A stretch of 64,000 bases of DNA, from the NCBI GenBank assembly GCA_964016885.1, contig OZ024761.1, positions 4,774,001 to 4,838,000 on the forward strand, written 5' to 3'. Positions 12,689 to 39,967 of this stretch are shown piece by piece. Made by a program: the position numbers and the translations under genes. This DNA is from Eledone cirrhosa. Its lineage: Eukaryota. The notes under the pieces were generated by a model. That model was not told the DNA's origin. It did no database searches and worked only from the letters and a program-made list of their open reading frames with translations. Each line of letters opens with the position of its first letter. Position 1 is the stretch's first letter.

Positions 12689-15600
12689 GGAATTGAGTGA
12701 TACCACAAATACAGCCCTTGTAGACAACCACCCCACCTCCACTGACAGACAAAGAGAATGGCCAGCTAAATCTAACAGTGAACAGCTCACCAACAATTTT
12801 GCTGAAATCCATCCCACTTCCACTGAAGAAGAGCGAGAAAGGTCAGCTGACTCTAGTAGTAATTGTCACCACATCAACAACGAGGCTGAAATTCATGACT
12901 CTACTGAACAAACAGAGCACCAAAAACTTGTGGACACCCTACAAGTGATATGGAACGATATGTTTCAAGAGATATACAGCCTTAATGTGAGTGACAGACC
13001 ATACAACACTAGAGTCAGTAAAGAACCCACTAAATTGGAATTGGAAGTGGTGAACGAAATAGCTGGCAGTTATCTGAAGGCTATACGATCTAAAGGTGTA
13101 GAAACGACATTTGAAACGCTTAATGTTTTGTTATGTTTCAGCTGTCACATTGCTATCATATAACACACATCTAAAACCACGCAATCAAGATACAAGCAGA
13201 AAGCCTGAACCAGCGTGGATGCGAAATTTAAAATCCAAAATTTTGTCCCTGAGACGAAGTATCTCACACATCGCAGTCGTTATGAAATGCAACATAGAGA
13301 GGAACTTCACACGACACCAGGAAGACCTAAAGAAAAAGTTAGAGAGACGATTTGGAGATACAAAATTTAAAACTTTGAACTCCAAATTACACCAGTTGAA
13401 ACAACAACTCACAGCTACAACAGAAAGACTGAAATATAAGTCAACAGCACATAAACGACAAGTGCTAAATAGATTGTTTGCCAGAGATCCTAAATCAGTT
13501 TATCGCAGCTTCGGTGGCAAAAGCTCAATCTCTGTAAATGACACCCCTTCAAAAGAACAGGTTGAGAGCTACTGGAGATCTGTATGGGAAACGGATGACG
13601 GATTCAACAGACAAGCTAATTGGCTAAAAGAACTGGAACAGGACTACTGCCAACATGTCCAGACAAAACAATATGACATAGATGGGTCAATACTGGAAAC
13701 AGCTCTACAGAAAATGTCGAATAGGAAATCGCCAGGCCCAGACCTCATTACAGGATACTGGTTGAAGAATTTCACTTTCTATCGGCAAGATCTCATACGG
13801 CTGTTTACAGAAACCATTAAGGGCACACAAGAACTGCCCAGGTGGTTATCAACTGCCTCTACTCTCCTCATTCCCCAAAATAGCCAAACCACCCTTGCTA
13901 AAAATTACCGCCCAATTGCCTGCCAAAACATCATGTATAAATTATATACTGGGTGCCTTAACCTGTTCTTACAGGATCACTGTGCTACCAACAACATCAT
14001 AACACCTGAGCAGGCTGGTGGAAAGAGGGAGGTGTGGGATTGCATAGATCACCTACTAACTAACAAAATGATTCAGGAAAAAACAACAAAGAATCGCAGA
14101 AACATGACTGTCGTGTGGCTGGACTATCAAAAAGCATTTGATAGTGTACCTCATGGGTGGATTGTTAAGGCTTTACAGTTAGCTAAAGTCCCACAACCAT
14201 TGGTAGCTGCTGTTGAACGCCTGACCAAGAACTGGTACACCAGTTTGATCCTTAGAGGTGAGCAGAAGCAGGTTAAGACTGATAAGATACATTACCAGAA
14301 GGGCATCTTTCAGGGTGATGGCTTGTCAGTGCTACTCTTCGTTCTCTCACTGAATCCACTATCTTACCTACTCAGGAAACAAGGTGGACAAAGAAGTGGG
14401 CCCAGAAGTATCTCCCATCTTTTCTTTGTTGATGACCTGAAGTTGTATGGGCCAAATATCAATGACATCAAGAAACAATTGGACCTCATTACACAATTTT
14501 CAACCGACATCAAAATGAAATTTGGTGAGTCCAAGTGTGCATATTTGGCAGTAAAACGTGGAAGAGCTGTGCCCTCCTCTAGGAATCTAGAGATGAACGG
14601 CCTGACAATACAACCTCTGCAGTCAGGTGACAACTACAGATATCTTGGACAGGATGAGAATGTCAGATATGATGGACCCATAAATAAGGAGAGAACCAGA
14701 ACTGAATACCTCAGAAGAGTAAAGAAAATATGGTCATCAGAACTGTCAGCATACAACAAATACATTACCCACAATACTTATGCTGTGCCAATTCTAACGC
14801 CAACATTTGGCCTACTGAACTGGTCATTGCAAGAACTAAGTGAGATGGATGTTAGAACTCGAAAACTTCTCAGTGTTACTGGGAACTTTAACATCAATGG
14901 TGATGTGGATAGGCTATACTTCTCACGCAAGGAAGGTGGCCGGGGTCTAAAATCAATATTAACAACATATGAGACCCGGATAGTAACACTGAAGCAACAC
15001 CTTCAACAGAGGAAAAAGGTTGGCAACCATCTTGCCCACGTTTATGAGCATGAAAAAATAAATATCATTAGAATAGCGACTGATCTGGAGGAGAGATATG
15101 GAATAAAGCCTGATATAAATCTCTCACCCAGAGAAATCGGAAGATCCTATTCAATGTTCAAACAAGATAAAAAAAATTGACCAATTTATAGAAAAAGTTG
15201 TGCATGGATACTTGAGACGTAAAACACAGACCATAGAGGGGATAAACCATTCAAAAAGCCTGGCATGGAGTTCCGACAAGTTTATGACATCACACCTTGA
15301 GGGATAACTCTATGCAATACAGGAACAAGAACTCCCTATCAAATATCTGTTGCACAAAAGAGGAGGGCCAGCAGCTGACAATAAGTGTAGGCTATGTAAA
15401 ACAAAGATCGAGGATGTAAGCCACATTGTTGCCAGCTGCGAAAGAATGTCATCTCGCTACTACCTCCCCATGAGACACGATAGGATAGCTAGAACCATCT
15501 GGAACGCACTTCGGAAAACAAAATTAACAACAAACGAAGAAGAATATATTGAGACAGATGGCACTAAGGAATACTGGTGGAACCTGAAAATAAAAACTGC

Positions 15601-20035: not shown

Positions 20036-21200
20036 TAAAGGCGGTCTATGTCACTGTTGATGTGGAAGTTTCCGGTGTTGTTCAGTATTTTTCGAGTTCC
20101 AACATCAACTGCTCGGATTTCGTCTATCGTCCAATTGAGTATTCCAAACGTTGGTGTTAGGACAGGCACAGCAAACACAATGTGAGCCACTGTTTTGTTT
20201 TGCGCAGAGAGTTCCGATGACCAGATCTTTCTTAATCGGGTGTAGTATTCCCTGGTTACGCGTTCTTTATTACAGATACCATTATAGGATATGTTCTCAT
20301 CTATCCCCAGGTATCTGTAGCAGTCCTCATCAGATATCGGTGAAAAAGTTATACCATTGATGACAATGTTGCTAGATTGGGTTGTTGTTTTTCCCCGCTT
20401 TACAGTCATGTATGAGCATTTATCTTGGCCAAACTCTATTCCTATATCCTTTGAGAACGTTGTAACCAGGTCAAGATTTTTCTTCATCCCATCCATGTTC
20501 TTGGCATAGAGTTTTAGATCGTCCACAAAGAAGTTATGGGTTAGGTTCGTATTTCTATCCTCCGGAGAGCCAATGATGTATCCCTCACATTTCTTAAGCA
20601 GAAAGGACAAGGGGTTTAATGACAAGATGAACACTATCACAGAGAGACTGTCCCCCTGAAATATACCCCTGCAATATTTTATTTTATCAGTGAAAATAGA
20701 GTTCTCCCTCTCTGTCTTTAACCTTAGGATAGTAGCCCAAGAAGAAGACAGCCTCTCTATGGCTCTGACAATAATGTCTGGGACTTTAGCAAGTTGGAGG
20801 GCCTCTATCATCCAAGAGTGGGGAACAGAATCGAAAGCTTTCTTGTAGTCCAGCCAGACTGTAGTCATATTCCTCCTAAGTTGTCGCACCTCCGGACATC
20901 GCAGTTTTGTTGATTAGGAGTTGTTCAGCATATCCCCAAACCCTTTTCTTTCCAGCTGCTTGTTCATCTGTGATGATGTTATTATTTTCACAGTGATCTT
21001 GGAGGAATAGGTTCAGGCAGGCTGTATACATCTTATACATCAGGTTCTGGCATGCAATGAGTCGGTAGTTTTTTGCCAAGTGGGTGTCTTTGTTCTTGGG
21101 GACCAGTAACGTTTGTGCTAATGTCAGCCATTCTGGTATAAGTGTATCCCCGTTAAGAACTTGTTGGTAGAGGTCATAGAATATTAGTTTTTTGTACCAG
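20036..21200 (-). mobile_element. RT fragment of a second R4/Dong-like family
   Basis: WLDYKKAFDSVPH, GIFQGDSLS, HNFFVDDLKLY; ends abruptly at NFHINSDIDRL; frameshift near 20880. Confidence 0.88.
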
Positions 21201-21769
21201 TGGTGGTGGTGGTGGTGGGTGATGATGAGGGTATATTAGCGGATAGTTCTAGTTAGTCTAGTAACCACACAGTGGCTCCCTCTGATGATTCTATTGTTTG
21301 GTGTCTTAATTCGGTTATAGGCTTAAACTGATGGTGGCGGTGGTGAGGTGGGGTGGATCAGAAGAGTGTGGTGGCGGTGGTCGGGGTAGGGGGTCGGTGG
21401 GGTATTTGTGTTGGAGGTGGTGGGGTTGGGGTGGGATGTTGGTGTTGGTGGTGGGGCGGGGGGATCAAATCAGTGTGGCGGTGGTGGTGGTGGTGTGGGG
21501 TATCAAATCAGTGTGGTGGTAGTGGTGATGGTAGTAGTGGTGGTTGTGGTGGTGGTATGTTGGTGGTGGTGTGTTGGTGGTGGTGTGTTGGTGGGGTGGC
21601 GGGGTGGGGGTTATATTTTGTTGTTAATAAATGATATTGTCAAGGGAAACTATACAATGACAAGGTCTGGTGATTGGCTCCTAGTTTCTCAGAGTCCTCG
21701 TACTGCTCTGTACCACCACCACCACCACCACCACCACCACCACCACTACTACTACCACTACTACCACTA

Positions 21770-23181: not shown

Positions 23182-23253
23182 TATAAAATACGGTAGATTT
23201 CAACAGCAGAGACAGTCGGAACCAAATAAGCAGCATAACACACAACTGAGTCA
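23182..23253 (+). promoter_or_regulatory. Transferrin core promoter: TATA box, Inr-like element and AP-1 site
   Basis: TATAAAA at 23182-23188; Inr-like ACAGTC about 30 nt downstream (A at 23214); TGAGTCA at 23247-23253 in the putative 5'UTR. Confidence 0.6.
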
Positions 23254-23277
23254 ACAGAGACAGAACTAGAAAGAACA

Positions 23278-23335
23278 ATGGAATCTCCCAGGCCATTCCA
23301 ATTATTGGTGTTGATAGTATTGGCATCACAAGCAG
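23278..23335 (+). CDS. Monolobal transferrin, coding exon 1 (signal peptide MESPRPFQLLVLIVLASQA)
   Basis: ATG at 23278, about 90 nt after TATAAAA. Hydrophobic LLVLIVLA core. Donor G|GTAGG at 23336 is phase 1, matching exon 2 (G+TG=Val). Spliced ...SQAVIA-VPT resembles the vertebrate transferrin signal cleavage site ...CLA-VP. Confidence 0.8.
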
Positions 23336-23391
23336 GTAGGAGACTTTCTTTGTTGTTGTTTCACATTTCATGTTAGCCTTCCATAGCGTCA

Positions 23392-23802
23392 GGCTCACTG
23401 GTTACGGTATTCGGCTTATGTTCGTAAGGTTGTCAGTTCGATTCCCGTTGTCGCGCTTTATTTCACGTTGCTCCAGTCCACTGTGTCCTTAAGCAAGACA
23501 CTTTATTTCACGTTGCTCCAGTCCACTGTGTCCTTAAGCAAGACACTTTATTTCACGTTACTCCAGTCCACTGTGTCCTTAAGCAAGACATTTTATTTCA
23601 CGTTGCTCCAGTCCACTCAGCTGGAATAAATGAGTTGTACCTGTAATTCGAAGGGCCAGCCTTGTCATATTCTGTGTCACACTGAATTTCCCTGAGAACT
23701 CCGTTAAGGGGACGCGTGTCTGTGGAATGCTCAGCCACTTCCACGTTAATTTCACGAGCAGGCTGTTCAGTTGATCACTTGTCGTAACTGACGAAGTGCC
23801 AG
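23392..23802 (+). mobile_element. tRNA-derived SINE with CORE-like and Nin/Deu-like domains (internal triplication of about 45 bp)
   Basis: tRNA head with GTTCGATTCCC; GTGTCCTTAAGCAAGACACTTTATTTCACGTTGCTCCAGTCCAC repeated; CCCTGAGAACT..GTCTGTGGAATGCTCAGCCACTT. Related pieces at about 24330-24547, 35229-35370, 54140-54280 and 59130-59207(-). Confidence 0.7.
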
Positions 23803-24019
23803 TTTAGTCTTCCATAATTTAGTGCCGAAAATTGTGGTCGCAGTTCATCGAAGGTTTAAGAGGTTCGATTAAGCCCCGAGTTCGATCTAACAACATCTTA
23901 AGCAAGTGTCAATCCCTATAGTCACGGGTGGTGGTCCTGCCATCTGTTGTAAGTGAGATTTGGCAGACAGAAACAGTTTTGAAGCCCGTCTGACGGAGAC
24001 GGTCTATACATGTAATTCT

Positions 24020-24332
24020 GTGAATTACAGGTATAGACAGTCATGTGAGTATATCTACCCGAGAGAATTACAGGTATAGACAGTCCGTCTGACTATATCT
24101 CCCCGAGAGAATTACAGGTATAGACAGTCGTGTGACTATATCTCCCCGAGAGAATTACAGGTATAGACAGTCGTCTGACTCTATCTCCCCGATAGAATTA
24201 CAGGTATAGACAGTCGTCTGACTATACCTCCCCGAGAGAATTACAGGTATAGACAGTTCGTCTGACTATATCTTCCCGAGAGAATTACAGGTATAGACAG
24301 TCGTCTGACTATATCTCCCCGAGAGAATTACG
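24020..24332. repeat. Minisatellite of about 43 bp, about 7 copies
   Basis: GAGAGAATTACAGGTATAGACAGTCGTCTGACTATATCTCCCC. Confidence 0.9.
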
Positions 24333-24615
24333 TTAAGGCGCCACGGGTCTATAGAATGCTCGGCCACTTAGACGTTAATTTCATGAGCCATACCTATAAT
24401 TCAGAGGTCCAGCCTTGTTACACACTTTCATACTGAATTTCCCTGAGAATTACAGTAAGTGTACACGTGTCACTTACATGACAATTTCATAAGCAGGGCT
24501 GTTGCGTTGATTGAACAACTGGAATACTCATCGTCGTAACCGACAGAAGACCGTTCCACATCCTCCATAACAATTGTATTGCGGCTTGCTGGTCATCTCC
24601 CGGAACGCAGGTCAC

Positions 24616-24890
24616 TCTATTTGGCCGGGCCACCGAAACCCTGTTGTATCAGTCTTCTATTTGGCCTTGCCACCCATGGCCGTGCCACCGAAATCCTGTT
24701 GTACCAGTCTTCTATTTGGCCGTCCCACCGAAACCCCGTTGTATCAGTCTTCTATTTGGCCTTGCCACCCATGGCCGTGCCACCGAAACCCTGTTGTACC
24801 AGTCTTCTATTTGGCCGTCCCACCGAAACCCCGTTGTACCAGTCTTCTATTTGGCCGTCCCACCCATGGCCGTGCCACCGAAAACCTGTT
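24616..24890. repeat. Minisatellite with alternating units of about 40 and 55 bp
   Basis: CTATTTGGCC..CACCGAAACCC.GTTGTA.CAGTCTT; the distal part recurs at 25603-25697. Confidence 0.85.
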
Positions 24891-25251
24891 GAATCTCACG
24901 AATGGTTTCCGTTTGGGCATCTCCAAGTTGTTTCCCAACTTTATATAGCATCGTTGCTCCACATGTTTGGTTATCACAGACGAAATGATGATGTGACGTG
25001 GAAGAGGTAGAGCACTTCACACACTGTCAAGTGTCTGGTGTACCCAGAGAGCTGACTAAAAACCACGCATGTGTATAAATATATGCGGCTCCACTCTGCA
25101 TATTTTTGTCTCCCTAATGCCATTGTTTCCCACCGAAAAAAAATTATAATGTCGTTTACTCTTTCAACAGACCTCATATATAAGGTACGTATTCATATTC
25201 GTACGGTTTTAGTACATAGCCCATAGTTTTACAGACACACACATGTGTGTG

Positions 25252-25330
<79 letters not shown>

Positions 25331-25390
25331 ATATATGTATATAATAGAAAAAAACGAGGAAGTTTTGTTTACATGTAAAATATGTTTATT

Positions 25391-25474
25391 GTTACGCGCG
25401 TTTCGCAGAGGATTGGCTCAAAGTAACCCATAGGTTTTATGGACCCGACTCCATTATCGATCTGTTCCTCAGAC
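25391..25474 (-). ncRNA. Hammerhead candidate with long stem II and weak stem I
   Basis: GU-CUGAGGA-acag...cugc-GAA-ACGCGCGU-A-AC. Confidence 0.45.
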
Positions 25475-25741
25475 TGGCGATGTGGCAAAAAAATAATATA
25501 TATATGAATGTGTATAGAGTACTTGATTTGGTACCAACACCAGCAACTCACTGTACTACCCCCCCCCCCCCATACATATATATATATATATATATATATT
25601 CAACCCATGGCCGTGCCACCGAAAACCTGTTGGTTTCCGTTTGGGCATTTCCAAGCTGTTTCCCAACTTTATACAGCATCGTTGCTCCACATGTTGAATA
25701 ATGGTATAATTAGTTTAATACTGGTTTAATCCTGATACATA

Positions 25742-26370
25742 CTAGCTGAGTAGCCCGTCGTTACTGGGCAATAATCACAATAGTATGACTTTATTTCAAT
25801 TTTTTTATGCCATGTCTCTCCCGAAGGGTAGTCCCCTTGATGAGAACGGATTTCTTTATTAATCGGGTCAATTACAATGTTTGTATAAACAATGTTAGTT
25901 GTCTTTCTATCTGGTGCAGAGATGTAGAGATTTTCTTCACTTCCTACTCTTGAACATCCAACGTAATCTGAGCATGGGTGAAGCAGGGCTCTTCAACATG
26001 TCAACCAGAAACTGAAAATGTTTGTCTTTGTGATTTGTTGATGGTCATGGCAAAACTAAGACTCACTAGAAATCGAAGTTGTTTGAATTGAAATAGGACA
26101 TCAGAGGGGATAAGAGGAATTCTTGAAAAGAAGCCTTCCTCTCCCCTACCACATCCTGTTGAAATGGTGGCTTGAATCATGTGTAGATACATATTTTTCA
26201 CAACCAGTCGAGTGCCATTGCATAGCCTTGGAGGGTCCAAATTCCTCAATAACATGATGGGTCTTCCTTCTTTATGGTGAAAGACATGTGGAGGCATTTC
26301 TGGTGGTTCTAAAGAGTTGAGAAACTCTGTCAGGTAATTAACAGCTCCTGACAGTTCCACCACAGTTCCA
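25742..26370 (-). mobile_element. Helitron 3' fragment (PIF1 helicase C-terminus and intact 3' terminus) in transferrin intron 1
   Basis: PIMLLRNLDPPRLCNGTRL..RIPLIP..FAMTINKSQ. The minus-strand end has hairpin GCCC-AGTAACGAC-GGGC, then CTAG followed by T. Confidence 0.88.
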
Positions 26371-26520
26371 CCACAGTTCAATAGAGCTTGGAAACCTTTG
26401 GAATTGATCCCATTGCTAATACTATCTATTGGTCGCCCGGTCTGGGAATCGAAATCACAACCTCGCCATTGCGAAACCGATTCTCTAACCACTCAGCAAC
26501 ACGCCTTCACATTACCATAC

Positions 26521-26718
<198 letters not shown>

Positions 26719-26785
26719 GATGACTGCGCCCTCGTTATCGAGTATGGTCATTGCACGATATAATATTATTAGTAATTATTAATTA

Positions 26786-27070
26786 ATTCTATCGTGCAAT
26801 GCCTGTGCGTGAAGAATTTTTAAAGTGAGGAAATACTGTGCACTGAGCCAATCCCACTCTCTGAGCTACAGTAGCTATAACCCGAAAAGAAGAAAAGATC
26901 AACATCATCGGTAACTACTGAGCCGCAGGTTTTATGTCGGAGTTATCCCAGTTTCCTGAGTTGCCTTCTCCTAGAAGAATGCCCTGACAAAGGCTAGGGG
27001 TCCTTCACTCCCAGTGGTTTAACCGCGCGATCGAATATCCAGCGCGACTATTTCTATGACCCCCGAACCA
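26786..27070 (-). mobile_element. Short RTE-5'UTR-related non-autonomous element (second copy at 40685-40970, +)
   Basis: Two dispersed homologous copies in opposite orientation. Shares the CCTAGCCTTTGTCA...TCTAGGAGAAGG motif with the element above. Confidence 0.6.
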
Positions 27071-27160
27071 ACATACATACATGCATGCATACATACATAC
27101 ATACATACATACATACATACATACATACATACATACATACATACATACATACATACATAC

Positions 27161-27624
27161 ATGGTGGCTGCCAACTCGTTTTCGATTACGGCCACTACTT
27201 TATATCCACGTAGGAGAACCCCTACCGATGCGCTGAACGAGTGTGACTTTTTAGTCCAGCCAGCGACTTGAAAACTCTGGCACAAACACTACACTTGTGA
27301 CAATTATTGACACATAGTGCTGGGCCCATTGTACCATGTGACGACAAGTGCAGAGAGATCTCCACATAGTGCTGGGCCCATTGTACCATGTGACGACAAG
27401 TGCAGAGAGATCTCCACATATAAAGCAATGCCTGTGCCGTGAAGCTTTTATAGTGAGCAAAGGCACTGCACAAAGCCAGTCCCACTCTCTTAACCAAGAT
27501 GATATTTACCAAAAAGAAGAACAAGTCAACATCATTGGATACCATCAGGGTTCCAGGTTTTATATCAGAGTTTTCCTTCTCCTAGAATTCTGCCTTGACA
27601 AAGGCTAAGGGGTCATCTCTCCCG
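27161..27624 (-). mobile_element. 5'-truncated copy of the bipartite RTE-derived element, with an internal duplication of about 54 bp
   Basis: Near-identical to 11901-12312; (TACA)n on both flanks. Confidence 0.7.
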
Positions 27625-27665
27625 AATACATACATACATACATACATACATACATACATACATAC

Positions 27666-28066
27666 AAAGCCCCAATAATAAACACATTAAAAGCTACAGC
27701 AATGTGGAAGACATACATATGCATAATATGAAAGAATACTGGTGGAATATTCCAGTAAAACCCCAATAAAATGCAGGCATAACAGACCAGATATTATGAT
27801 ATGGGACAGGAAAAAGAAGGCATGCACAGTAGTGGAAGTTAGATGCCCAGCAGATGCCAATATAATATTAAAGATTAGCGAAAAAGAGAATATTTAACTG
27901 ATGAGAAATCTGCATATATTTTACCCTGACTATACCTTCAGATTTATGCCTGTGATTATTGGGGCACTGGGATATGTTAGTAACTGCCTCAATACAAATC
28001 TTGAGAAGCTGGGTTTCACAGGAACAGAAAGAACACAACTAGTTAGGAAATTACAAGTACAATATT
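27666..28066 (+). mobile_element. Short endonuclease-domain fragment of the second R4/Dong-like family (transferrin intron 1)
   Basis: Homologous to about 37170-37566 (EYWWN, HNRPDIMIWD, FMPVIIGALG); preceded by (TACA)n. Confidence 0.85.
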
Positions 28067-28512
28067 TGAAAAAAAAAATGGTCATGCATCATGTCCCTTT
28101 CTTCTTTCTTTCTTTTTTTATCTCTTTCCCTTATACAGTTATATATTCTATCATCTCTATCTTGCTCTTCCTTCTTTTTATCTTCATCTTTTTATCTTTT
28201 TCCCTTTTCTCTTCTATTTAGCTCTCTCTCTCTTTTGTTTTTTTTTCTATAACACGGATATTTACATATTTAAATATTTAACATTTATATACTTATATGT
28301 TTTTTTATTTTTTTTATTTATTTATTCTATACTTTCTCCTACTCAGCCACTCCTAATACTTATTTCTCGCTACTTACCCCTCTCCATCATATTTAGTTTG
28401 TCACACTTTTACTTGTGGTATATAAATATTGAGTTTTGTTGTAATAAATCACTTCCAAGACTGGAATTGAACCATCAGCACAGTTGAGGTATTTCGTACA
28501 TCAATTTATGTA

Positions 28513-28574
28513 TTTTATCTGATGAGGACGTACTGAAAAAACAGCACAATACCTCCGAAATATATATAATAAAA
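28513..28574 (+). ncRNA. Minimal type I hammerhead ribozyme, sense strand in transferrin intron 1
   Basis: UUUUAU-CUGAUGA-gga..ucc-GAAA-UAUAUAUA-AUAAAA; paralog at 42933. Confidence 0.72.
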
Positions 28575-28719
28575 CATATATTTTGATTATGTGAATGTAT
28601 CCATTTCTTAATATTTTGAATAATATTAATAACTCCATGAAACTTCATTGTTGAGTGCTTTTAATCTATTGTAAAACTATATTCATTGAGTAATCAATGA
28701 ACCTTGTTTAACATTTGGT

Positions 28720-28838
<119 letters not shown>

Positions 28839-29425
28839 TATATTATATTTTGAGAATAAACTCTCAGTCGTTTACAATAATCCAGCTCCAAGAAAAGGGA
28901 CATTTCCGAGCAGTTAAATACATTAAAATATATGATAAACACAAAATATAATATAGTATATTGCTCCTTAACTGTAGAGCTGATCTTTAATCCCGCATAA
29001 ACGGCTGTTATTTCTAGCACCGGGAATGCGGGACGGCTAATTTGGCCTGGCTGCACACGTGTAGTCAGACCTGCTAAATCTTTGATGTGAAATATACTAA
29101 TTTTACTGGGTTCCTGTTGATAAGCACAGAAGATTTGGATATTTCACTTTTTATTTCAATTCCATTTCGATTCTCTTTATTTTTCAATTCACGTACCACC
29201 GTTGCGAAACGGATTTAGGTTTCGAGGTTCAAATTCGTCTACAGAACAGGTTTGGATTTTGAAATTTAAATTTGTCCAGGAATCATGGCCTTTGCCAATA
29301 TAAGCTTGTCTTTATTGACTTATATCGAGACAGACAAATTGTATTCACTTTAATTAGTTTATTTCATTAATAGCTAACTTTGTCTGTTGCAATGTAAACA
29401 CATTTCGTGTTTATCATATATTTTA

Positions 29426-29549
<124 letters not shown>

Positions 29550-29579
29550 GTTTTATCATCTCCTACTTTGATGTTCCAG

Positions 29580-29766
29580 TGATTGCTGTACCAACTATAC
29601 CAATGCTTTGCGTGACATCAATGGCAGAACTACAAAAGTGTAAGACCTTTCACAACATCATGTGTTTGATAGGCTCCGATGCTCTGGATTGTATGAAGAA
29701 AATCAGTGGAAGCCCATTGCATGGTGTAACTTCCCTTGATGGCGGATATATTTACAGAGCCGGAAA
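29580..29766 (+). CDS. Monolobal transferrin, coding exon 2
   Basis: Acceptor ttccAG| at 29579, donor |GTAAG at 29767 (phase 2). Encodes LCVTSMAELQKC...C...DCMKKI...SLDGGYIYRAGK, the transferrin N-terminal motif including the iron-ligand Asp (D73). Confidence 0.92.
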
Positions 29767-30580
29767 GTAAGATTTAAAAAAAATTAAATTTCATCTATAT
29801 ATAAATTTCTGCGATTCTGTCACAACATATAAAGAGAGAGGTGTAGTTTGACTACCTCATACTACCCCTCTCTCTTTACCTCTGCTGCCTGTGTACAACA
29901 TGTAAAGAGAGAGGAGTAGTTTGACTACCTCATACTACTCCTCTCTCTTTACCTCTACTGCCTGTGTACAACATATAAAGAGAGGGGAGTAGGTTGACTA
30001 CCTCATACTACTCCTCTCTCTTTACCTCTGCTGCCTGTGTGAATGTATGTGTGTGTAAAAGGGAGGAAGGGGTGGTGAAAAAACTATAGCAAAATAATGG
30101 ATGGCGTTCCATTTGTTATGCTGTGTGTATGTGTGAATGTATGTGTGTGTTTGTGTGAATGTATGTGTTTGTGTAAATGTATGTGTTTGTGTGAATGTAT
30201 GTGTGTGTTTGTGTGAATGTATGTGTTTGTGTGAAAGAGTGTGTGTTTGTGTGAATGTATGTGTTTGTATGAATGTATGTGTGTGTGCTTGTGTGAATGT
30301 ATGTGTGTGTGTGTGTGAATGTATGTGTGTTTGTGTGAATGTATGTCTGAGTGTGTATTTTTGTGTGTCTGTGTCTGCATGTTTATATTTATATATTCAT
30401 ACATATAAATGTATACATATGTACATACACACACACATACATACACACACACACACATACACACACATCCACACGCACGAATACACACACTCAACCAAAG
30501 TTACCGACCCTTACACACACACACACACACACACAAATACACACACAAATACATACACTCCACCCAAGCTACCGGCCCTT

Positions 30581-30660
<80 letters not shown>

Positions 30661-30763
30661 ACACTCTTCCCAAGCTACCGGCCCTTACACACACACACAC
30701 ACGTACACACACACTTCCCAAGCTACCGGCCGTTCTGTCTAAGAGATCATTCTTGTTTTGTAG

Positions 30764-30882
30764 GTGTTATGGCCTGAAACCAATTTTGGCTGAAAAATAT
30801 AACAACATGCCTGGTGGAAAGGGTTACTATGCAGTAGCTGTAGCCAAGAAAAGTTCCCACGTCACTATCAACACTCTAGAAG
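30764..30882 (+). CDS. Monolobal transferrin, coding exon 3
   Basis: Acceptor ttttgtAG| at 30763, donor |GTCAG at 30883 (phase 1). Encodes CYGLKPILAEKY...GYYAVAVAKKS, the transferrin YYAVAV signature (ligand Y103). Confidence 0.93.
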
Positions 30883-31129
30883 GTCAGCCATTTTACGATA
30901 CTAACATTTCAACATTTGGCGGTATCGATGGCAACGGTAATTGTCATTATCGGTAGAGAGTCGGACACCATGCCTTGCAGCATAGAGCTACGGCCCTTTA
31001 TGGTCTGAGTTCAAATCCCGCCGAGGTTAACTTTGCCTTTCATCCTTACGGGGTCGATAAAATAAAGTACCAGTAATACACTGGGGGTAATTTCTGGTAC
31101 TTTATTGTTGTGGTCTATATTTGAATGCA

Positions 31130-34100
31130 ACATTATAGTCAGAACTTCCAATAAGTGACATTATAGTCAGAACTTCCAATAAGTGACATTATAGTTAGAA
31201 CTTCCAATAAGTGACTCTATAGTCAGAACTTCCAATAAGTGACATTATAGTCAGAACTTCCAATAAGTGACCTTATAGTTAGAACTTCCAATAAGTGACA
31301 TTATAGTCAGAACTTTCAATAAGTGACATTATAGTCAGAACTTCCAATATGTGACATTATAGTCAGAACTTCCAATAAGTGACACTATAGTCAGAACTTC
31401 CAATAAGTGACCTTATAGTTAGAACTTCCAATAAGTGACATTATAGTCAGAACTTCCAGTAAGTGACAATATAGTCAGAACTTCCAAAAAGTGACATTAT
31501 AGTCAGAACTTCCAATATGTGACATTATAGTCAGAACTTCCAATAAGTGACACTATAGTCAGAACTTCCAATAAGTGACACTATAGTCAGAACTTCCAAT
31601 AAGTGACATTATAGTCAGAACTTCCAATAAGTGACACTATAGTCAGAACTTCCAATAAGTGACACTATAGTCAGAACTTCCAATAAGTGACATTATAGTC
31701 AGAACTTCCAATAAGTGACATTATAGTCAGAACTTCCAATAAGTGACATTATAGTCAGAACTTCCAACAAGTGACACTATAGTCAGAACTTCCAATAAGT
31801 GACACTATAGTCAGAACTTCCAATAAGTGACATTTTAGTCAGAACTTCCAATATGTGACAATATAGTCAGAACTTCCAATAAGTGACACTATAGTCAGAA
31901 CTTCCAATAAGTGACATTATAGTCAGAACTTCCAATAAATGACATTATAGTCAGAACTTCCAATAAGTGACATTATAGTCAGAACTTCCAATAAGTGACA
32001 CTATAGTCAGAACTTCCAATAAGTGACACTATAGTCAGAACTTCCAATAAGTGACATTTTAGTCAGAACTTCCAATATGTGACAATATAGTCAGAACTTC
32101 CAATAAGTGACACTATAGTCAGAACTTCCAATAAGTGACATTATAGTTAGAACTTCCAATAAGTGACATTATAGTCAGAACTTCCAATATGTGACATTAT
32201 AGTTAGAACTTCCAATGAGTGACATTATAGTCAGAACTTCTTATAAGTGAAATTATAGTCAGAACTTCCAATAAGTGACATTATAGTTAGAACTTCCAAT
32301 AAGTGACATCATAGTCAGAATTTCCAATAGGTGACACTATAGTCAGAACTTCCAATAAGTGACATTATATTCAGAACTTCCAATAAGTGACATTATAGTC
32401 AGAACTTCCAATAAGTGACATTATAATCAGAACTTCCAATACGTGACACTATAGTCAGAACTTCCAATAAGTGACATTATAGTCAGAACTTCCAATAAGT
32501 GACATTATAGTAAGAACTTCCAATAAGTGACATTATAGTCACAACTTCCAATAAGTGACACTATAGTCAGAACTTCCAATAAGTGACATTATAGTCAGAA
32601 CTTCCAATACGTGACACTATAGTCAGAACTTCCAATAAGTGACATTATAGTCAGAACTTCCAATAAGTGACACTATAGTCAGAACTTCCAATAAGTGACA
32701 TTATAGTCAGAACTTCCAATAAGTGACACTATAGTCAGAACTTCCAGTAAGTGACATTATAGTCAGAACTTCCAATAAGTGACACTATAGTCAGAACTTC
32801 CAATAAGTGACATTATAGTCAGAACTTCTAATAAGTGACATTGTAGTCAGAACTTCCAATAAGTGACATTATAGTTAGAACTTCCAATAAGTGACACTAT
32901 AGTTAGAACTTCCAATAAGTGACATTATATTCAGAACTTCCAATAAGTGACACTATATTTAGAACTTCCAATAAGTGACACTATAGTCAGAACTTCCAAT
33001 AAGTGACACTATAGTTAGAACTTCCAATAAGTGACATTATAGTCAAAACTTCCAATAAGTGACACTATAGTCAGAACTTCCAATAAGTGACATTATAGTC
33101 AGAACTTCCAATAAATGACATTATAGTCAGAACTTCCAATAAGTGACATTATAGTCAGAACTTCCAATAAGTGACACTATAGTCAGAACTTCCAATAAGT
33201 GACACTATAGTCAGAACTTCCAATAAGTGACATTTTAGTCAGAACTTCCAATATGTGACAATATAGTCAGAACTTCCAATAAGTGACACTATAGTCAGAA
33301 CTTCCAATAAGTGACATTATAGTTAGAACTTCCAATAAGTGACATTATAGTCAGAACTTCCAATATGTGACATTATAGTTAGAACTTCCAATGAGTGACA
33401 TTATAGTCAGAACTTCTTATAAGTGAAATTATAGTCAGAACTTCCAATAAGTGACATTATAGTTAGAACTTCCAATAAGTGACATCATAGTCAGAATTTC
33501 CAATAGGTGACACTATAGTCAGAACTTCCAATAAGTGACATTATATTCAGAACTTCCAATAAGTGACATTATAGTCAGAACTTCCAATAAGTGACATTAT
33601 AATCAGAACTTCCAATACGTGACACTATAGTCAGAACTTCCAATAAGTGACATTATAGTCAGAACTTCCAATAAGTGACATTATAGTCAGAACTTCCAAT
33701 AAGTGACATTATAGTCAGAACTTCCAATAAGTGACACTATAGTCAGAACTTCCAATAAGTGACATTATAGTCAGAACTTCCAATACGTGACACTATAGTC
33801 AGAACTTCCAATAAGTGACATTATAGTCAGAACTTCCAATAAGTGACACTATAGTCAGAACTTCCAATAAGTGACATTATAGTCAGAACTTCCAATAAGT
33901 GACACTATAGTCAGAACTTCCAGTAAGTGACATTATAGTCAGAACTTCCAATAAGTGACACTATAGTCAGAACTTCCAATAAGTGACATTATAGTCAGAA
34001 CTTCTAATAAGTGACATTGTAGTCAGAACTTCCAATAAGTGACATTATAGTTAGAACTTCCAATAAGTGACACTATAGTTAGAACTTCCAATAAGTGACA

Positions 34101-34260
34101 TTATATTCAGAACTTCCAATAAGTGACACTATATTTAGAACTTCCAATAAGTGACACTATAGTCAGAACTTCCAATAAGTGACACTATAGTTAGAACTTC
34201 CAATAAGTGACATTATAGTCAAAACTTCCAATAAGTGACACTATAGTCAGAACTTCCAAT
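31130..34260. repeat. 28 bp satellite, about 112 copies, in transferrin intron 3
   Basis: Unit TATAGTCAGAACTTCCAATAAGTGACAT. Confidence 0.97.
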
Positions 34261-34943
34261 CTGCGAGCGAAGATTCAATGAAAGCCACCAGGTGTCTTTG
34301 AATGAGAAAAGACCTATTCGTGGGCGATTGCTGCTGGGATGCAATTTAAAAACAAAAATGTTATATTACAAAATCCCTCTAAATTCCTGTTTCCCCGGTC
34401 CAGTCTTTCACGTGCAGAGGCCCTAATCTATATGAAATTTGAAGCCCTTCCCTAGAAAATATTATTATAACTTTTCATATAAATTTTAATGATAAAGAAT
34501 AAATAATTAATGTTTAATAATTAAAAATATATAAAATAAAAATATATTTTTAAAACTGAGACCCCTCTGGGGTGTGAGGCCAAAGGCTATAGCTTGTAGG
34601 TAAAACCAGCTATGATTACCAGTATGGGACCCCTGCTAGGATGTGAGGCCCAAAGCTATAGTTTATCTAGTTTATAGGTAAACCCAGCTCTGATTACCAG
34701 TATGGGACCCCTGCTGGGATGTGAGGCCCAAAGCTATAGTTTATCTAGTTTATAGGTAAGCCCAGCTTTATTATTTTCAAAAGGATTTGGAAATTATAGG
34801 CTGTGTCTTTCATTTCACATAGAGTTATAAATTATCTTTCATTTCACATAGAGTTATAAAATTGTTGAAGACGAGGTCTTGGAATGTTTCTCCTCAAGAA
34901 TGTTATTGATATTTCTTTGATATCTAATATTTTCTCTCTAGAA

Positions 34944-35509
34944 CAACGTTTCTAAACCAGTGTTCTTCTGAAGCCTACGGGCCAGCAATAAGTCGCTAGG
35001 GGTTCCGTGAGAAACTCTGATAAATAAGCTAATACATTTTTGAGTAATTTCATATTCATAATTTTACCACACACGTACGACATATTGTTGGAAGATCCTT
35101 GGTTATCCCAAGAAAATATATTATGTTTACCACGTGACTAAATAAAAATATTAAATATTAATAATGGTATATAATAATTGTTATGCAGGAGTTCCCAGGT
35201 CACATGAAAACTATTTCAAAGGATGTGAAGGCGTATGGCTTAGTGGTTAGAACATTGGACTTGCAATAGAAAGGTTGTGAGTTCATTTCTCGGACTGGGT
35301 GATGTGTTGTTTCCTTGATGTGTTTATTTCACGTTGCTCCAGTTTACTCAGCTGTAGAAATGAGATGATAGGACTGGGGTCCCTATCATTAAATTACCCA
35401 AGACACCTCCAACGAGATATACTTGGAGGAGGCCAGTTAAACTTGCATAGGTGTGAGCTGTCACACACACACACTACACATACAAGGTTAAAAAGGCTGG
35501 GAAACGCTG
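34944..35509. mobile_element. hAT (Charlie-like) MITE with a nested SINE fragment, transferrin intron 3
   Basis: TIRs CAACGTTTCTAAAC / GCTGGGAAACGCTG; 8-bp TSD CTCTAGAA (34936-34943) / TTCTAGAA (35510-35517). Confidence 0.7.
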
Positions 35510-35599
35510 TTCTAGAATGTTCCTGATATTTATTTGGTATCTAACGTTTTCACAAAATATTCCCATATTCTATATTCCTTGTCTTTATTTCCTATCTAG

Positions 35600-36192
35600 G
35601 TAAGAAATCTTGTCACACTGGTCTGAATAAAACTGCCGGATGGTTTATCCCAATGAGTGTTTTATTTAGTGATAAAAACAACCAGTTAGAACAAGCCTCG
35701 AATTTCTTCACTGCTAGCTGTGTGCCCGGAGCAATGAGCGGTACAAATATGTGTATGTTGTGTACTCCAAACTGCAAACGGAACAGTGATAACCTTTACT
35801 ACGGGTACGATGGAGCAGCTAGATGCCTGAAAGAGACTGACGCCGATGTTGCCTTTGTGAAGCATACAACATTCCTGAACGAGGCTGACAAGGGTAACTA
35901 TGAGCTACTGTGTCGGGATGGTACCACTGCAAACATTGACGATTATGAAACCTGTCATTTAGCCGCAACTCCTTCTCATGCTATTGTCGGCCGCAACAGC
36001 TTAAGCTCCGATGTAATTATAGACATTTTTTATAATTTTGATAGCATAGGCGACGAATTACTATTTTCTACGCAATACGGTAAAAACCTGATATTTTCCG
36101 ACAACACTGATTACTTGATGGCGCAAAACACCTCATACATAGACTTTTTAGGTCCCCAATACATGAACGCCCTGCCAGAAGTTTCATGTTAA
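35600..36192 (+). CDS. Monolobal transferrin, coding exon 4 (terminal)
   Basis: Acceptor tatctAG| at 35599. Encodes GKKSCHTGLNKTAGW, SCVPG, YYGYDGAARCL, DVAFVKH, YELLCRDG, CHLAATPSHAIV, KNLIFSD and ends VSC-stop. The spliced CDS (58+187+119+593=957 nt) stays in frame. Confidence 0.95.
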
Positions 36193-36367
36193 GATACCAA
36201 CGACTTTTGGTACTTCAATATATTAATGGAAATATCAGAAATGTGATGTAACATCTCATTTACTTAACTATAATAGAAATATCAGAAATGTAATGTAACA
36301 TCTTATAGACTCCAATCATAGAAAACTATTCATTATAACTTTTACATTTCTTAATTTTTTTTACGGA

Positions 36368-36373
36368 AATAAA
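36368..36373 (+). terminator. Polyadenylation signal of the transferrin gene
   Basis: AATAAA about 175 nt after the stop codon, followed by T/GT-rich sequence. Confidence 0.6.
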
Positions 36374-36491: not shown

Positions 36492-37850
36492 ACACCGGAA
36501 ACTTACACATCAACAGTGACATAGACCGCCTTTACTTGAAACGTAAGCAGGGAGGCAGAGGCCTAACATCAGTCCAGACAACATTTGCATGTCGCATCAT
36601 ATCTCTCCGACAACATCTACGAACCTCAACGCGTAGGAGCCCGTTTCTCGGGCATGAAACAGATAATATCACGAAACAGATCACGAAACAGATAAGATCA
36701 CGAGAGTTGGGAAGGAACTCCTCGAGAGATATTCCCTGTGTGATAATCAAAACTCACACCCAGCGAAGTCGCTCAGCAGTATTGCAGTGAATCCGTGGAT
36801 GAAAAACTGCATGCTTATCAGCAAAAAATGATGCATGGATATGTTGCCAGGAAGCTCTAAAGTGAGAGTAATATATATAAGGAAAGTAGTCTATCTTGGA
36901 CCAACAACCGCTATATTGGCTCCCACTTTGCAGGATACGCTTTTGCAATCCAAGAACAGGAGATTAACACGAAATACTTGATTCCCAAAAGAGATAGGGA
37001 TGCAAGCAAAACACCTAGATGTGATAACAAGTGCAGACTCTGCAGAACTAACATCGAGGATATCACCCATGTCATCTGCAGCTATCCAAAGATGTCATCG
37101 CAGTACTATCTACCTATGAGGCATGATGTAGTGGCCAAAACACTGTACAATGCAGTTCGTGAAAAAGATAGCCCCGATAATAAACACATTAAAAGCTACA
37201 GCAATGTGGAAGACATCCATGTACATAATATGAAAGAGTACTGGTGGAATGTTCTAGTAAAAACCCCAATAAAATGCAGGCATAACAGACCAGATATTAT
37301 GATATGGGACAGGGAGAAGAAAGCATGCACACTAGTGGAAATTAGCTGCCCAGCAAATATAATATCAAAGATTAGCGAAAAGGAGAATATGTATGCAGAA
37401 CTGATGAGAAATCTGCAGATATTCCACCCTGATTACACCTTCAGATTTATGCCTCTGATTATTGGGGCACTGGGGTATGTTAGTAACTGCCTCAATACAA
37501 ATCTTGAGAAGCTGGGCTTCACAGGAACAGAAATAACACAACTAGTTAGGAAATTACAAGTACAATCCATTAATGGAACAGCAAAAATATGTAAAACATT
37601 CCAAAACTTTTGCATCTAATAACTGCATATACACATGTACAGATACAAAGCATATACACATGCACACATACAACTCAAAACAGCCACATCCACACATACA
37701 ATAACATCCATATCTACACATGCATGCATGCATACATAATCTACCTAGTTGATCTTGTGTAAATTCCAATGAGAGAGTCTTGTGTCTATGTTAGAAACCG
37801 ACTCTCTCTCTATTGGGAAAAAATTTGTGAAATTATAAAACCAGAAGGAC
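36492..37850 (+). mobile_element. 3' portion of the second R4/Dong-like family (CCHC + endonuclease + 3'UTR)
   Basis: Starts at [24 protein letters not shown]; CRLC..HVIC, RHD, RPDIMIWD, VEISCP. (TACA)n at the 5' side and CATACATA at the 3' side. Confidence 0.88.
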
Positions 37851-38934: not shown

Positions 38935-39245
38935 TTAAGTACAGCGTCTACATGACCCGAAGAAGTCAGTCCTGATGTTTATTAGGCTGCTTCCACCGCT
39001 GAGTATCTCGAGGGTCTCGCTCAAACATAGTTTGCAGCTGCCAGTTCCCCCTTTATCAGGTGCTACTTTCCTGATTTTGAACCAGGCCAGAGAGTACGGG
39101 GTCTCGTCCAGCTTCAGCTTCTAGATCAGTTCGGAAAGAGCCGTACTTTTCCTTTTGTCCTCCCTATTAAAGGAATGGCGATGGTTATACCATCGGTCTT
39201 TAAAGCTCGTTGATGTGGCTCCTATGTAAAGGTGTTCAGAGTTTT
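38935..39245 (-). mobile_element. Penelope-like GIY-YIG fragment
   Basis: HLYIGATSTSFKDRWYNHRHSF..STALSELI*..CKLCLSE. Confidence 0.8.
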
Positions 39246-39629
39246 TTTCACATACACGCGTATGTACTTTATGCCAAGATAAGAACTGTAGTCCTCTGCA
39301 TTTCCGATTTTGACACTCAGGTTCTGGTGTTTTACACTCCACTCTTGTCTCATTTGCTCTTAAAACGCACCATCCCATGATAGTGTAAAGATTGTCATCC
39401 TTTGCACTTCTCGATTCTGACACACAGCCTTTCTACTTCACTCAATATTTTCCAAATCTTTCAAACTTTGATATTGGTTGTAACACACACGCATTTTATT
39501 TTATTTTATTTTATTTATTTATTTATTTTTATTTTGTATTTATTTTTTTAAATCTTATTTTTTATCTGTTTGGCACCCCCCACCACGTGAAATGGTGGCA
39601 GGATAGATGCCAACCCTCACACACAAAGA

Positions 39630-39910
39630 GATAAAATCAGAGTGTATAGAGGAGCCAGAACCAAATGGGAAAAAATGGTAAATAATGGCATAAATGGGAC
39701 CTGCCCCTTGTATAGGAGCAAATTTTGGAAAAGAATAGAAAGAACTAGGAATAAGGCTAATAGAATAAACTCATGGTATGATAGCAATAAATACCAGAGC
39801 GTTATGTTCATCGATACAACCCCTAGAAGTGAATTAGCTTACAAATTTAGAAGGGCCCTAGATAAACATAATAAAGTTATAACCCCACTATCCGGGAGCT
39901 TCCAACTGTA
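39630..39910 (+). mobile_element. Possible Penelope-like linker-region fragment
   Basis: PLYRSKFW..SWY..SVMFIDTTPRSELA..R resembles the PLE region between RT and GIY-YIG; adjacent to a hammerhead-bearing repeat. Confidence 0.4.
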
Positions 39911-39967
39911 ATGGTTGCATCCTTTAAGGGTATGTCAATATTTATTTATAAAACTGCTCTATATTAT

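What the first reader, a model, noticed from the sequence alone, without database searches (positions are those of the whole stretch)
23182..36373. Complete single-lobe transferrin gene hidden among repeats
Seen in sequence: four exons with GT-AG sites and matching phases splice to 318 aa, a signal peptide plus exactly one transferrin lobe. A TATA box lies upstream and a stop plus AATAAA downstream, leaving no room for a second lobe. Established: most transferrins are bilobal (about 680-720 aa); monolobal ones are rare, the best-known being ascidian nicatransferrin. Inference: this is a secreted half-transferrin in a probable cephalopod, either ancestral-type or a secondary lobe loss. The ORF track shows only disconnected pieces of it.
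Basis: partly seen in the sequence, partly recalled or inferred. Interest (0 to 1): 0.82.

Follow-up and report, generated by a model that had tools for sequence, protein, structure and literature searches.

The report
Octopus half-transferrin, likely from C-lobe
This octopus gene encodes a half-size transferrin with one lobe and all four iron-binding residues; it is shared with other octopuses and cuttlefish and likely arose from the second half of their ordinary two-lobed transferrin, so it would be a derived secreted iron scavenger rather than an ancient relic.

Summary
The gene is real. Four GT-AG exons (23278-23335, 29580-29766, 30764-30882, 35600-36192) give 318 aa: signal-like N-terminus, one transferrin lobe, stop. 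No second lobe lies in the window. Orthologues of 313-314 aa exist in Octopus, Argonauta and a cuttlefish cluster, some on 1.0-1.2 kb contigs that must be spliced. No RNA of this species was available. Ligands D73, Y103, Y191 and H248 are intact; Lys replaces Arg124. The genome has three near-identical copies plus a bilobal gene with a hydrophobic tail. The single lobe shares both internal introns and a 119-nt exon with that gene's C-lobe, none of four introns with its N-lobe, and a cysteine pattern almost confined to coleoid C-lobes. Trees reject an N-lobe origin (p=0.0004) but do not separate a C-lobe origin from a relic. The window's copy has diverged fast in subdomain 1 and lost the conserved AD motif. 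Single-lobed transferrins are known (ascidian nicatransferrin, fish OMP-1); ten literature searches found no cephalopod one. Verdict: new variant of a known kind, moderate interest.

The parts
23182..23188 (+). TATA-like box, 96 bases before the ATG; the same in all three copies
   Evidence: function not tested
23278..23335 (+). Exon 1 coding part: predicted signal peptide (19 codons + 1 base), phase-1 donor
   Evidence: hydropathy; protein identical in the three copies
29580..29766 (+). Exon 2: start of the lobe, four Cys, iron ligand D73; carries two in-frame insertions (3 codons and 1 codon) and most changes specific to this copy
   Evidence: present with 0 differences in DNA-run contigs
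30764..30882 (+). Exon 3 (119 nt, phase 2 to phase 1): Cys83 and iron ligand Y103; same length and phases as an exon of the bilobal gene's C-lobe
35600..36192 (+). Exon 4 coding part: anion site T128/K132, ligands Y191 and H248, K209/K283, terminal Cys318 and TAA; no hydrophobic anchor tail
36368..36373 (+). AATAAA polyadenylation signal, 176 bases after the stop
   Evidence: conserved in the paralogues
31130..34260 (.). 28-bp satellite (about 112 copies) in intron 3; also present in intron 3 of the upstream paralogue

Best explanation
This is an intact four-exon gene for a 318-aa single-lobe transferrin with all four iron ligands, which is likely secreted, is predicted to clamp one Fe3+ with carbonate, and likely arose in an ancestor of octopuses and cuttlefish from the C-lobe of their two-lobed, probably membrane-anchored transferrin. 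Proposed route (inferred): the bilobal gene was duplicated; the copy lost the N-lobe exons, which leaves the phase-1 signal exon in frame with the phase-1 first C-lobe exon; a stop right after the last Cys removed the hydrophobic tail, giving a soluble protein of about 32.5 kDa before glycosylation. Proposed role (inferred from the family): binding and withholding iron in haemolymph or secretions, dividing labour with the anchored bilobal protein. In this octopus the gene recently triplicated, and the window's copy is diverging quickly on subdomain 1. Shown: gene structure, ligands, copies, shared introns and cysteines. Inferred: secretion, iron binding, order of events, tissue and role.
For: Gene. 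Orthologues: 313-314 aa in O. vulgaris, O. sinensis (RefSeq), Argonauta and a cluster holding Acanthosepion pharaonis; unnamed 313-aa members lie on contigs of 1022-1164 nt, too short for an unspliced gene. Fold: the O. vulgaris orthologue models as one transferrin lobe (pLDDT 70, Foldseek E 2.9e-25). Ligands D73/Y103/Y191/H248 and T128 align to human D63/Y95/Y188/H249/T120 (ligand list from PMC9957567); Lys for Arg124 occurs in 74 of 143 lobes with the full ligand set. C-lobe origin: 2 of 2 internal introns and the 119-nt exon are shared with the bilobal C-lobe, 0 of 4 N-lobe introns. 'Cys83 present, Cys137-equivalent absent' occurs in 15 of 311 scorable lobes: 9 coleoid single lobes, 4 coleoid C-lobes, 2 others; the limpet C-lobe lacks it. 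BLAST 188 bits to the C-lobe against 122 to the N-lobe. AU test rejects grouping with coleoid N-lobes (p=0.0004) and does not reject C-lobes (p=0.59 with lnL 3.3 higher than the free quick tree; p=0.42); the careful 30-row tree joins single lobes, coleoid C-lobes and one fish N-lobe at 86/90.
Against: No RNA or protein evidence for this copy. No tree gives a clean, starred single-lobe + C-lobe clade: FastTree (327 lobes) joined the clade to algal-type, jellyfish and unnamed 330-370 aa single lobes at 0.968, and the quick 60-row tree to the last two at 92; grouping with the unnamed single lobes is not rejected (p=0.24), nor with coral lobes (p=0.087). The single lobes lack a 12-13 residue insert that coleoid C-lobes have, so a loss is needed. 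Identity to the C-lobe is only 38%, the same as to the N-lobe over a shorter stretch. Intron positions of limpet, cnidarian or tunicate genes were not examined, so the shared introns are not shown to be derived. The window's copy lacks the AD motif before D73 that is kept in 6 of 6 orthologues and in about 82% of 308 lobes, so this copy may bind iron less well than its paralogues.
Confidence: 0.68

Rival explanations
1. Relic: the gene descends from a single-lobed transferrin that predates the lobe duplication, akin to cnidarian or ascidian single lobes, and was kept only in coleoids among the sampled protostomes.
For: FastTree and the quick IQ-TREE tree place the clade beside jellyfish and unnamed single lobes; AU does not reject this (p=0.24). 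It shares short loops with those proteins.
Against: Exact match of two introns and a 119-nt exon with the coleoid C-lobe; cysteine pattern shared with coleoid C-lobes and absent from the cnidarian and unnamed single lobes; long stems on both sides (0.8-1.0 changes per column) invite false joining; no non-coleoid member fell in the clade among 327 lobes, which would need many losses.
Confidence: 0.15
2. The family is functional, but the window's copy is a young duplicate under relaxed constraint that is losing function; its paralogues do the work.
For: Loss of the AD motif and of the N45 sequon, two insertions; whole-gene dN/dS between copies is 0.8-2.4 and never significantly above 1 (Fisher p 0.11-0.77).
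Against: Frame, splice sites, 14 of 14 Cys, all ligands, promoter and polyA signal are intact; amino-acid-changing differences run at 18 of 722 sites against 46 of 5038 non-coding sites (2.7-fold, p=0.0006), faster than neutral; all 15 changed residues outside indel flanks lie at 37-69 and 260-275.
Confidence: 0.2
3. The protein is a transferrin-fold binder of something other than iron (another metal, or a structural or matrix role as for fish OMP-1).
For: PMC3125230 reports that nicaTf may carry vanadium and that OMP acts in otolith growth; Arg124 is Lys here.
Against: OMP lacks the ligands, whereas D-Y-Y-H and T-K are invariant in 9 of 9 full-length coleoid single lobes, as in the bilobal C-lobe.
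Confidence: 0.12

Closest known systems
Ascidian nicatransferrin (Ciona, Halocynthia)
   Same: One lobe, soluble, metal-binding with carbonate (as cited in PMC3125230).
   Different: Different phylum; this protein has the C-lobe-type Cys83/terminal Cys pair and sits beside a bilobal gene whose C-lobe introns it shares. No named nicaTf sequence was in hand; the unnamed 330-370 aa single lobes (such as P0323, P0330) only resemble it by recall.
Fish otolith matrix protein-1 (OMP-1)
   Same: Single-lobe transferrin gene that coexists with bilobal genes.
   Different: OMP has lost the iron ligands (PMC3125230; F-Y-E-N in P0049) and has 9 exons in cod; this gene keeps all four ligands and has 4 exons.
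Coleoid bilobal transferrin / melanotransferrin-like (Sepioteuthis lessoniana QGK85629.1, 688 aa; O. vulgaris CAI9736201.1, 694 aa; G000:C2:21.15-21.18 Mb)
   Same: C-lobe ligands, Lys at the anion site, Cys pattern and, for the own-genome gene, intron positions.
   Different: Two lobes, a degenerate N-lobe site (S-Y-Y-V in the own gene) and a hydrophobic C-terminal tail; 38% identical to the single lobe. The published squid Tf is the orthologue of this bilobal gene (51% N, 54% C), not of the window's gene.
Cnidarian single-lobe 'melanotransferrin-like' proteins (Stylophora, Acropora, Sanderia)
   Same: One lobe with D-Y-Y-H and Lys at the anion site.
   Different: They end in a hydrophobic tail, keep the Cys137 equivalent and lack Cys83.

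Membership tests
Transferrin family (PF00405) | Transferrin lobe sequence above the curated cut-off | tested here: met
   Exon 4 alone scores 160 bits against a cut-off of 20.3; three exons tile profile positions 4-325
Transferrin family (PF00405) | Two-subdomain lobe fold | tested here: met
   Model of the 67%-identical O. vulgaris orthologue matches transferrin lobes, E 2.9e-25, TM 0.62-0.76; the window's own spliced protein was not folded
Transferrin family (PF00405) | Iron ligands Asp, Tyr, Tyr, His | tested here: met
   D73, Y103, Y191, H248
Transferrin family (PF00405) | Anion pocket Thr and Arg124 | tested here: inconclusive
   T128 kept; Lys132 in place of Arg, as in 74 of 143 lobes with full ligands
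Transferrin family (PF00405) | Measured Fe3+/carbonate binding | not testable with these tools
   needs recombinant or native protein
Monolobal transferrins | Complete gene encodes exactly one lobe | tested here: met
   full-length 313-314 aa orthologues
Monolobal transferrins | Single-lobe transcript in this species | not testable with these tools
   no RNA holder listed
Nicatransferrin (ascidian lineage) | Orthology with ascidian single lobes | tested here: inconclusive
   Grouping with unnamed look-alikes not rejected (p=0.24) but not preferred; no named nicaTf in the set
Melanotransferrin-like bilobal proteins | Two lobes | tested here: not met
   one lobe
Melanotransferrin-like bilobal proteins | Hydrophobic C-terminal anchor signal | tested here: not met
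   protein ends at Cys318; no hydrophobic window after residue 144
Otolith matrix protein-1 | Loss of iron ligands; fish-specific clade | tested here: not met
   ligands intact; OMP groups elsewhere

The most novel reading that the evidence does not exclude
Coleoid cephalopods re-invented a one-lobed, soluble transferrin by cutting the C-lobe out of their anchored two-lobed gene; it is their main circulating iron-withholding protein, has been misread as a 'partial' transferrin (possibly the top haemocyte transcript of cuttlefish), and the window's copy is under positive selection on one face of subdomain 1, as in a host-microbe contest for iron.
Probability: 0.25. Interest if true: 0.72.

Novelty: new variant of a known kind. 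Interest (0 to 1): 0.48.

Why it matters
Single-lobed transferrins are usually read as stand-ins for the ancestor before the lobe duplication. A clear secondary case with an intact iron site, living beside its two-lobed parent, would show that one lobe need not mean primitive. It would also give a natural pair for testing what the second lobe adds to iron affinity. For cephalopod biology it supplies a candidate soluble iron carrier or scavenger, and three young copies with one fast-changing surface offer a testable case of divergence after duplication.

Tried and rejected
RNA evidence: no RNA holder listed. The three runs offered behaved as DNA of at most one sample (contigs cross the exon 4 acceptor without a joint); they hold the window's exon 2 with 0 differences and a paralogue-type contig, which argues against an assembly error but may be the source sample. 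First splice model was one base off and gave stops; corrected. A second lobe nearby: none. N-lobe origin: rejected. The careful 60-row tree did not finish in two runs; the quick tree and a careful 30-row tree were used. dN/dS against synonymous sites was not significant. The ESM Atlas gave only chordate and arthropod transferrin clusters. Earlier findings of this scan: none. The squid 38-kDa band in PMC6934447 is read by its authors as a C-lobe fragment; I could not test whether it is the single-lobe protein. PMC13669787 lists a melanotransferrin with dN/dS 1.40 between sibling octopus species; which gene it is could not be told, as its supplement was unreadable. Tinoco 2008 (PMC2265155) is not held. 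No complex was predicted, since no binding claim is made.

Full report
Observation. Exons 23278-23335, 29580-29766, 30764-30882 and 35600-36192 are bounded by GT..AG, have phases 1, 2 and 1, and splice to 957 nt, or 318 residues and TAA. TATAAAA lies at 23182 and AATAAA at 36368. Three exon translations tile Pfam Transferrin positions 4-64, 66-114 and 106-325 of 328. A lobe HMM run on 6712 six-frame pieces of the window and the paralogue stretches found no other lobe piece; the next hits had E = 3. The N-terminus has a hydrophobic run (peak 2.59 at residues 11-21) and the C-terminus has none; mature mass is about 32.5 kDa. No signal-peptide predictor was available.

Copies and relatives. The genome (3.0 Gb) holds three copies on contig C22 and one other transferrin locus on C2. 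Copy A (C22:4740130-4769847, +) and copy C (C22:4957583-4940646, -) have the same four exons and encode intact 314-aa proteins; promoter, 5' UTR, exon 1 and 3' UTR are nearly identical. Some false duplication of haplotypes cannot be excluded, but three copies, one inverted and with different intron lengths, cannot all be alleles. Close relatives are O. vulgaris and O. sinensis (314 aa, 67-68%), Argonauta hians (313 aa, 61%) and 313-aa proteins at 59-60%, one cluster of which holds an Acanthosepion pharaonis fragment. Unnamed 313-aa members lie on contigs of 1022-1164 nt; a 942-nt frame on such a contig must come from a spliced transcript if the gene has introns as here. All end in the same terminal Cys. 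The window is therefore from an octopod, and the gene is old enough to be shared by octopods and cuttlefish. For this species no RNA run was listed.

Anatomy. Against human transferrin (ligands and subdomain limits from PMC9957567, passages) the protein keeps D73, Y103, Y191 and H248, T128, and K209/K283 at the dilysine positions; Arg124 is Lys132, as in 74 of 143 lobes that have all four ligands. It has 14 Cys. By recalled human numbering they would form seven bonds, including Cys83-Cys318, the equivalent of the C-lobe bond 402-674; this pairing comes from no call. The O. vulgaris orthologue folds as a single lobe (pLDDT 70; Foldseek E 2.9e-25 to human transferrin).

The bilobal gene. The C2 locus splices to a two-lobed protein with a hydrophobic tail (signal exon not located). 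It is the orthologue of the published squid Tf (688 aa; 51% and 54% by lobe; PMC6934447, parts 1-2 of 5 and passages) and of O. vulgaris and Argonauta proteins of 668-694 aa. Its N-lobe has lost two ligands (S-Y-Y-V); its C-lobe has all four.

Origin. The C-lobe has two internal introns: phase 2 just before the Cys that matches Cys83, and phase 1 in the Gly before KSC/KTC. The exon between them is 119 nt, and one long exon follows. The single-lobe gene has exactly this layout. The N-lobe has four introns (phases 0, 1, 1, 1), none shared. The first N-lobe exon and the first C-lobe exon both begin in phase 1, as does exon 2 of the single-lobe gene, so deleting the N-lobe exons would keep the frame (inference). 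Among 327 lobes (585 found; 110 of the 120 mostly vertebrate proteins and 30 near-duplicate ids dropped; 5 own sequences added), 311 could be scored, and 15 have Cys83 without the Cys137 equivalent: 9 coleoid single lobes, 4 coleoid C-lobes, 2 others. The limpet C-lobe does not.

Trees are weaker. The coleoid single lobes always form one clade on a long stem. FastTree joined them to algal-type multi-lobed proteins (label by recall), a jellyfish lobe and unnamed single lobes at 0.968. A quick mixture-model tree of 60 lobes joined them to the last two at 92, unstarred, but forcing them with coleoid C-lobes gave a likelihood 3.3 higher (p-AU 0.59). A careful tree of 30 of these 60 lobes joined them with coleoid C-lobes and one fish N-lobe at 86/90. 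On that set, AU p was 0.42 for C-lobes, 0.24 for the unnamed single lobes, 0.087 for coral lobes and 0.0004 for coleoid N-lobes. Against a C-lobe origin, the single lobes lack a 12-13 residue insert of coleoid C-lobes, and I did not examine outgroup introns. I put a C-lobe origin at about 0.75.

The window's copy. It differs from A and C by two in-frame insertions and, outside indel flanks, 15 residues, all at 37-69 and 260-275; both stretches map to subdomain 1. At least 18 of 722 amino-acid-changing sites differ, against 46 of 5038 non-coding sites in 15 of 18 segments that aligned in all three copies (2.7-fold, Fisher p 0.0006; one segment's hit in copy C was only 71% alike and inflates C's count, not this one). 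Against synonymous sites (3 of 193) the excess is not significant. At positions 41, 46 and 54 the window has the O. vulgaris residue, so some changes belong to the A/C stem. Gene conversion that evens out introns could mimic the signal. The copy has lost the AD motif before D73 (Gly68 in 1 of 308 lobes) and the N45 sequon, and turned Q260, E262 and E266 into V, I and Y. Positive selection on one surface and early decay both remain open.

How it most likely works. Inferred from the family: it is secreted, closes its two subdomains on one Fe3+ with carbonate, and so carries or withholds iron in fluid, while the tailed bilobal protein works at membranes. A lead on expression: in Sepia officinalis haemocytes the top transcript (28,022 TPM, unchanged by Vibrio) is a 'partial' transferrin 41.16% identical to coho transferrin (PMC7551771, passages and two supplement rows). 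Decapodiform-type single lobes give 37-42% to a coho transferrin and the bilobal cuttlefish protein 32% overall or 39% by C-lobe. This fits the single-lobe type but does not show it.

What is known. PMC3125230 (passages) says true single-lobed transferrins were claimed only for ascidians and adds fish OMP, which lacks the ligands; PMC3603312 (passages) calls OMP-1 the only vertebrate one. Coral and jellyfish single lobes are in the databases. Ten full-text searches found no description of a cephalopod single-lobe transferrin. The library lacks most subscription papers, and I did not see the family surveys by Lambert and colleagues or Tinoco 2008. PMC4361686 and PMC13025143 (passages) added nothing; PMC13669787 gave one passage and an unreadable supplement. 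The orthologue is already annotated at 314 aa in RefSeq under a generic name.

Verdict. A real, intact gene and a new variant of a known kind: a coleoid single-lobe transferrin with a complete iron site, likely cut from the C-lobe of the bilobal gene and recently triplicated. Interest 0.48.

Noticed in passing
window:44469-45183 (+): Intronless stretch resembling the C-terminal half of amidophosphoribosyltransferase (Pfam Pribosyltran, E 2.4e-7; enzyme name by recall), open for 195 codons and then apparently shifting frame; probably a processed pseudogene.
   Followed up: partly
window:26004-26492 (-): Pif1 helicase 2B domain fragment in intron 1, probably a Helitron remnant; the stretch is also in copy A.
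   Followed up: partly
window:13102-15907 (+), 20038-21235 (-), 36532-37616 (+), 47290-48281 (-): Broken non-LTR retrotransposon copies; RVT_1 hits at 13102-15177 and 20038-20913. One begins about 300 bases after the transferrin stop.
   Followed up: partly
window:61826-63421 (-) and 39121-39911: Long ORFs with no Pfam hit for the first that resemble Penelope-type elements by recall.
   Followed up: no
L019-L021 and L022-L023 (G000:C22:4740130-4769847 + and 4957583-4940646 -): Two intact 314-aa paralogues. Copy A has an extra Cys (R253C) and R227W, with 7 amino-acid-changing and 0 silent differences of its own.
   Followed up: yes
L026-L028 (G000:C2:21150381-21177900 +): Bilobal transferrin with a degenerate N-lobe site and a hydrophobic tail like a GPI signal; the squid orthologue has the same tail although PMC6934447 calls it soluble and does not mention GPI.
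   Followed up: yes
P0051 and P0193 (Acanthosepion pharaonis CAE1317746.1, CAE1317748.1): Two truncated single-lobe models on one contig, annotated MFI2; may be a separate tandem duplication in cuttlefish or a split annotation.
   Followed up: no
P0323, P0330, P0336, P0340, P0352 and kin: An unnamed clade of 330-370 aa soluble single-lobe transferrins with full ligands from environmental and read assemblies; resembles ascidian nicatransferrin by recall only.
   Followed up: partly
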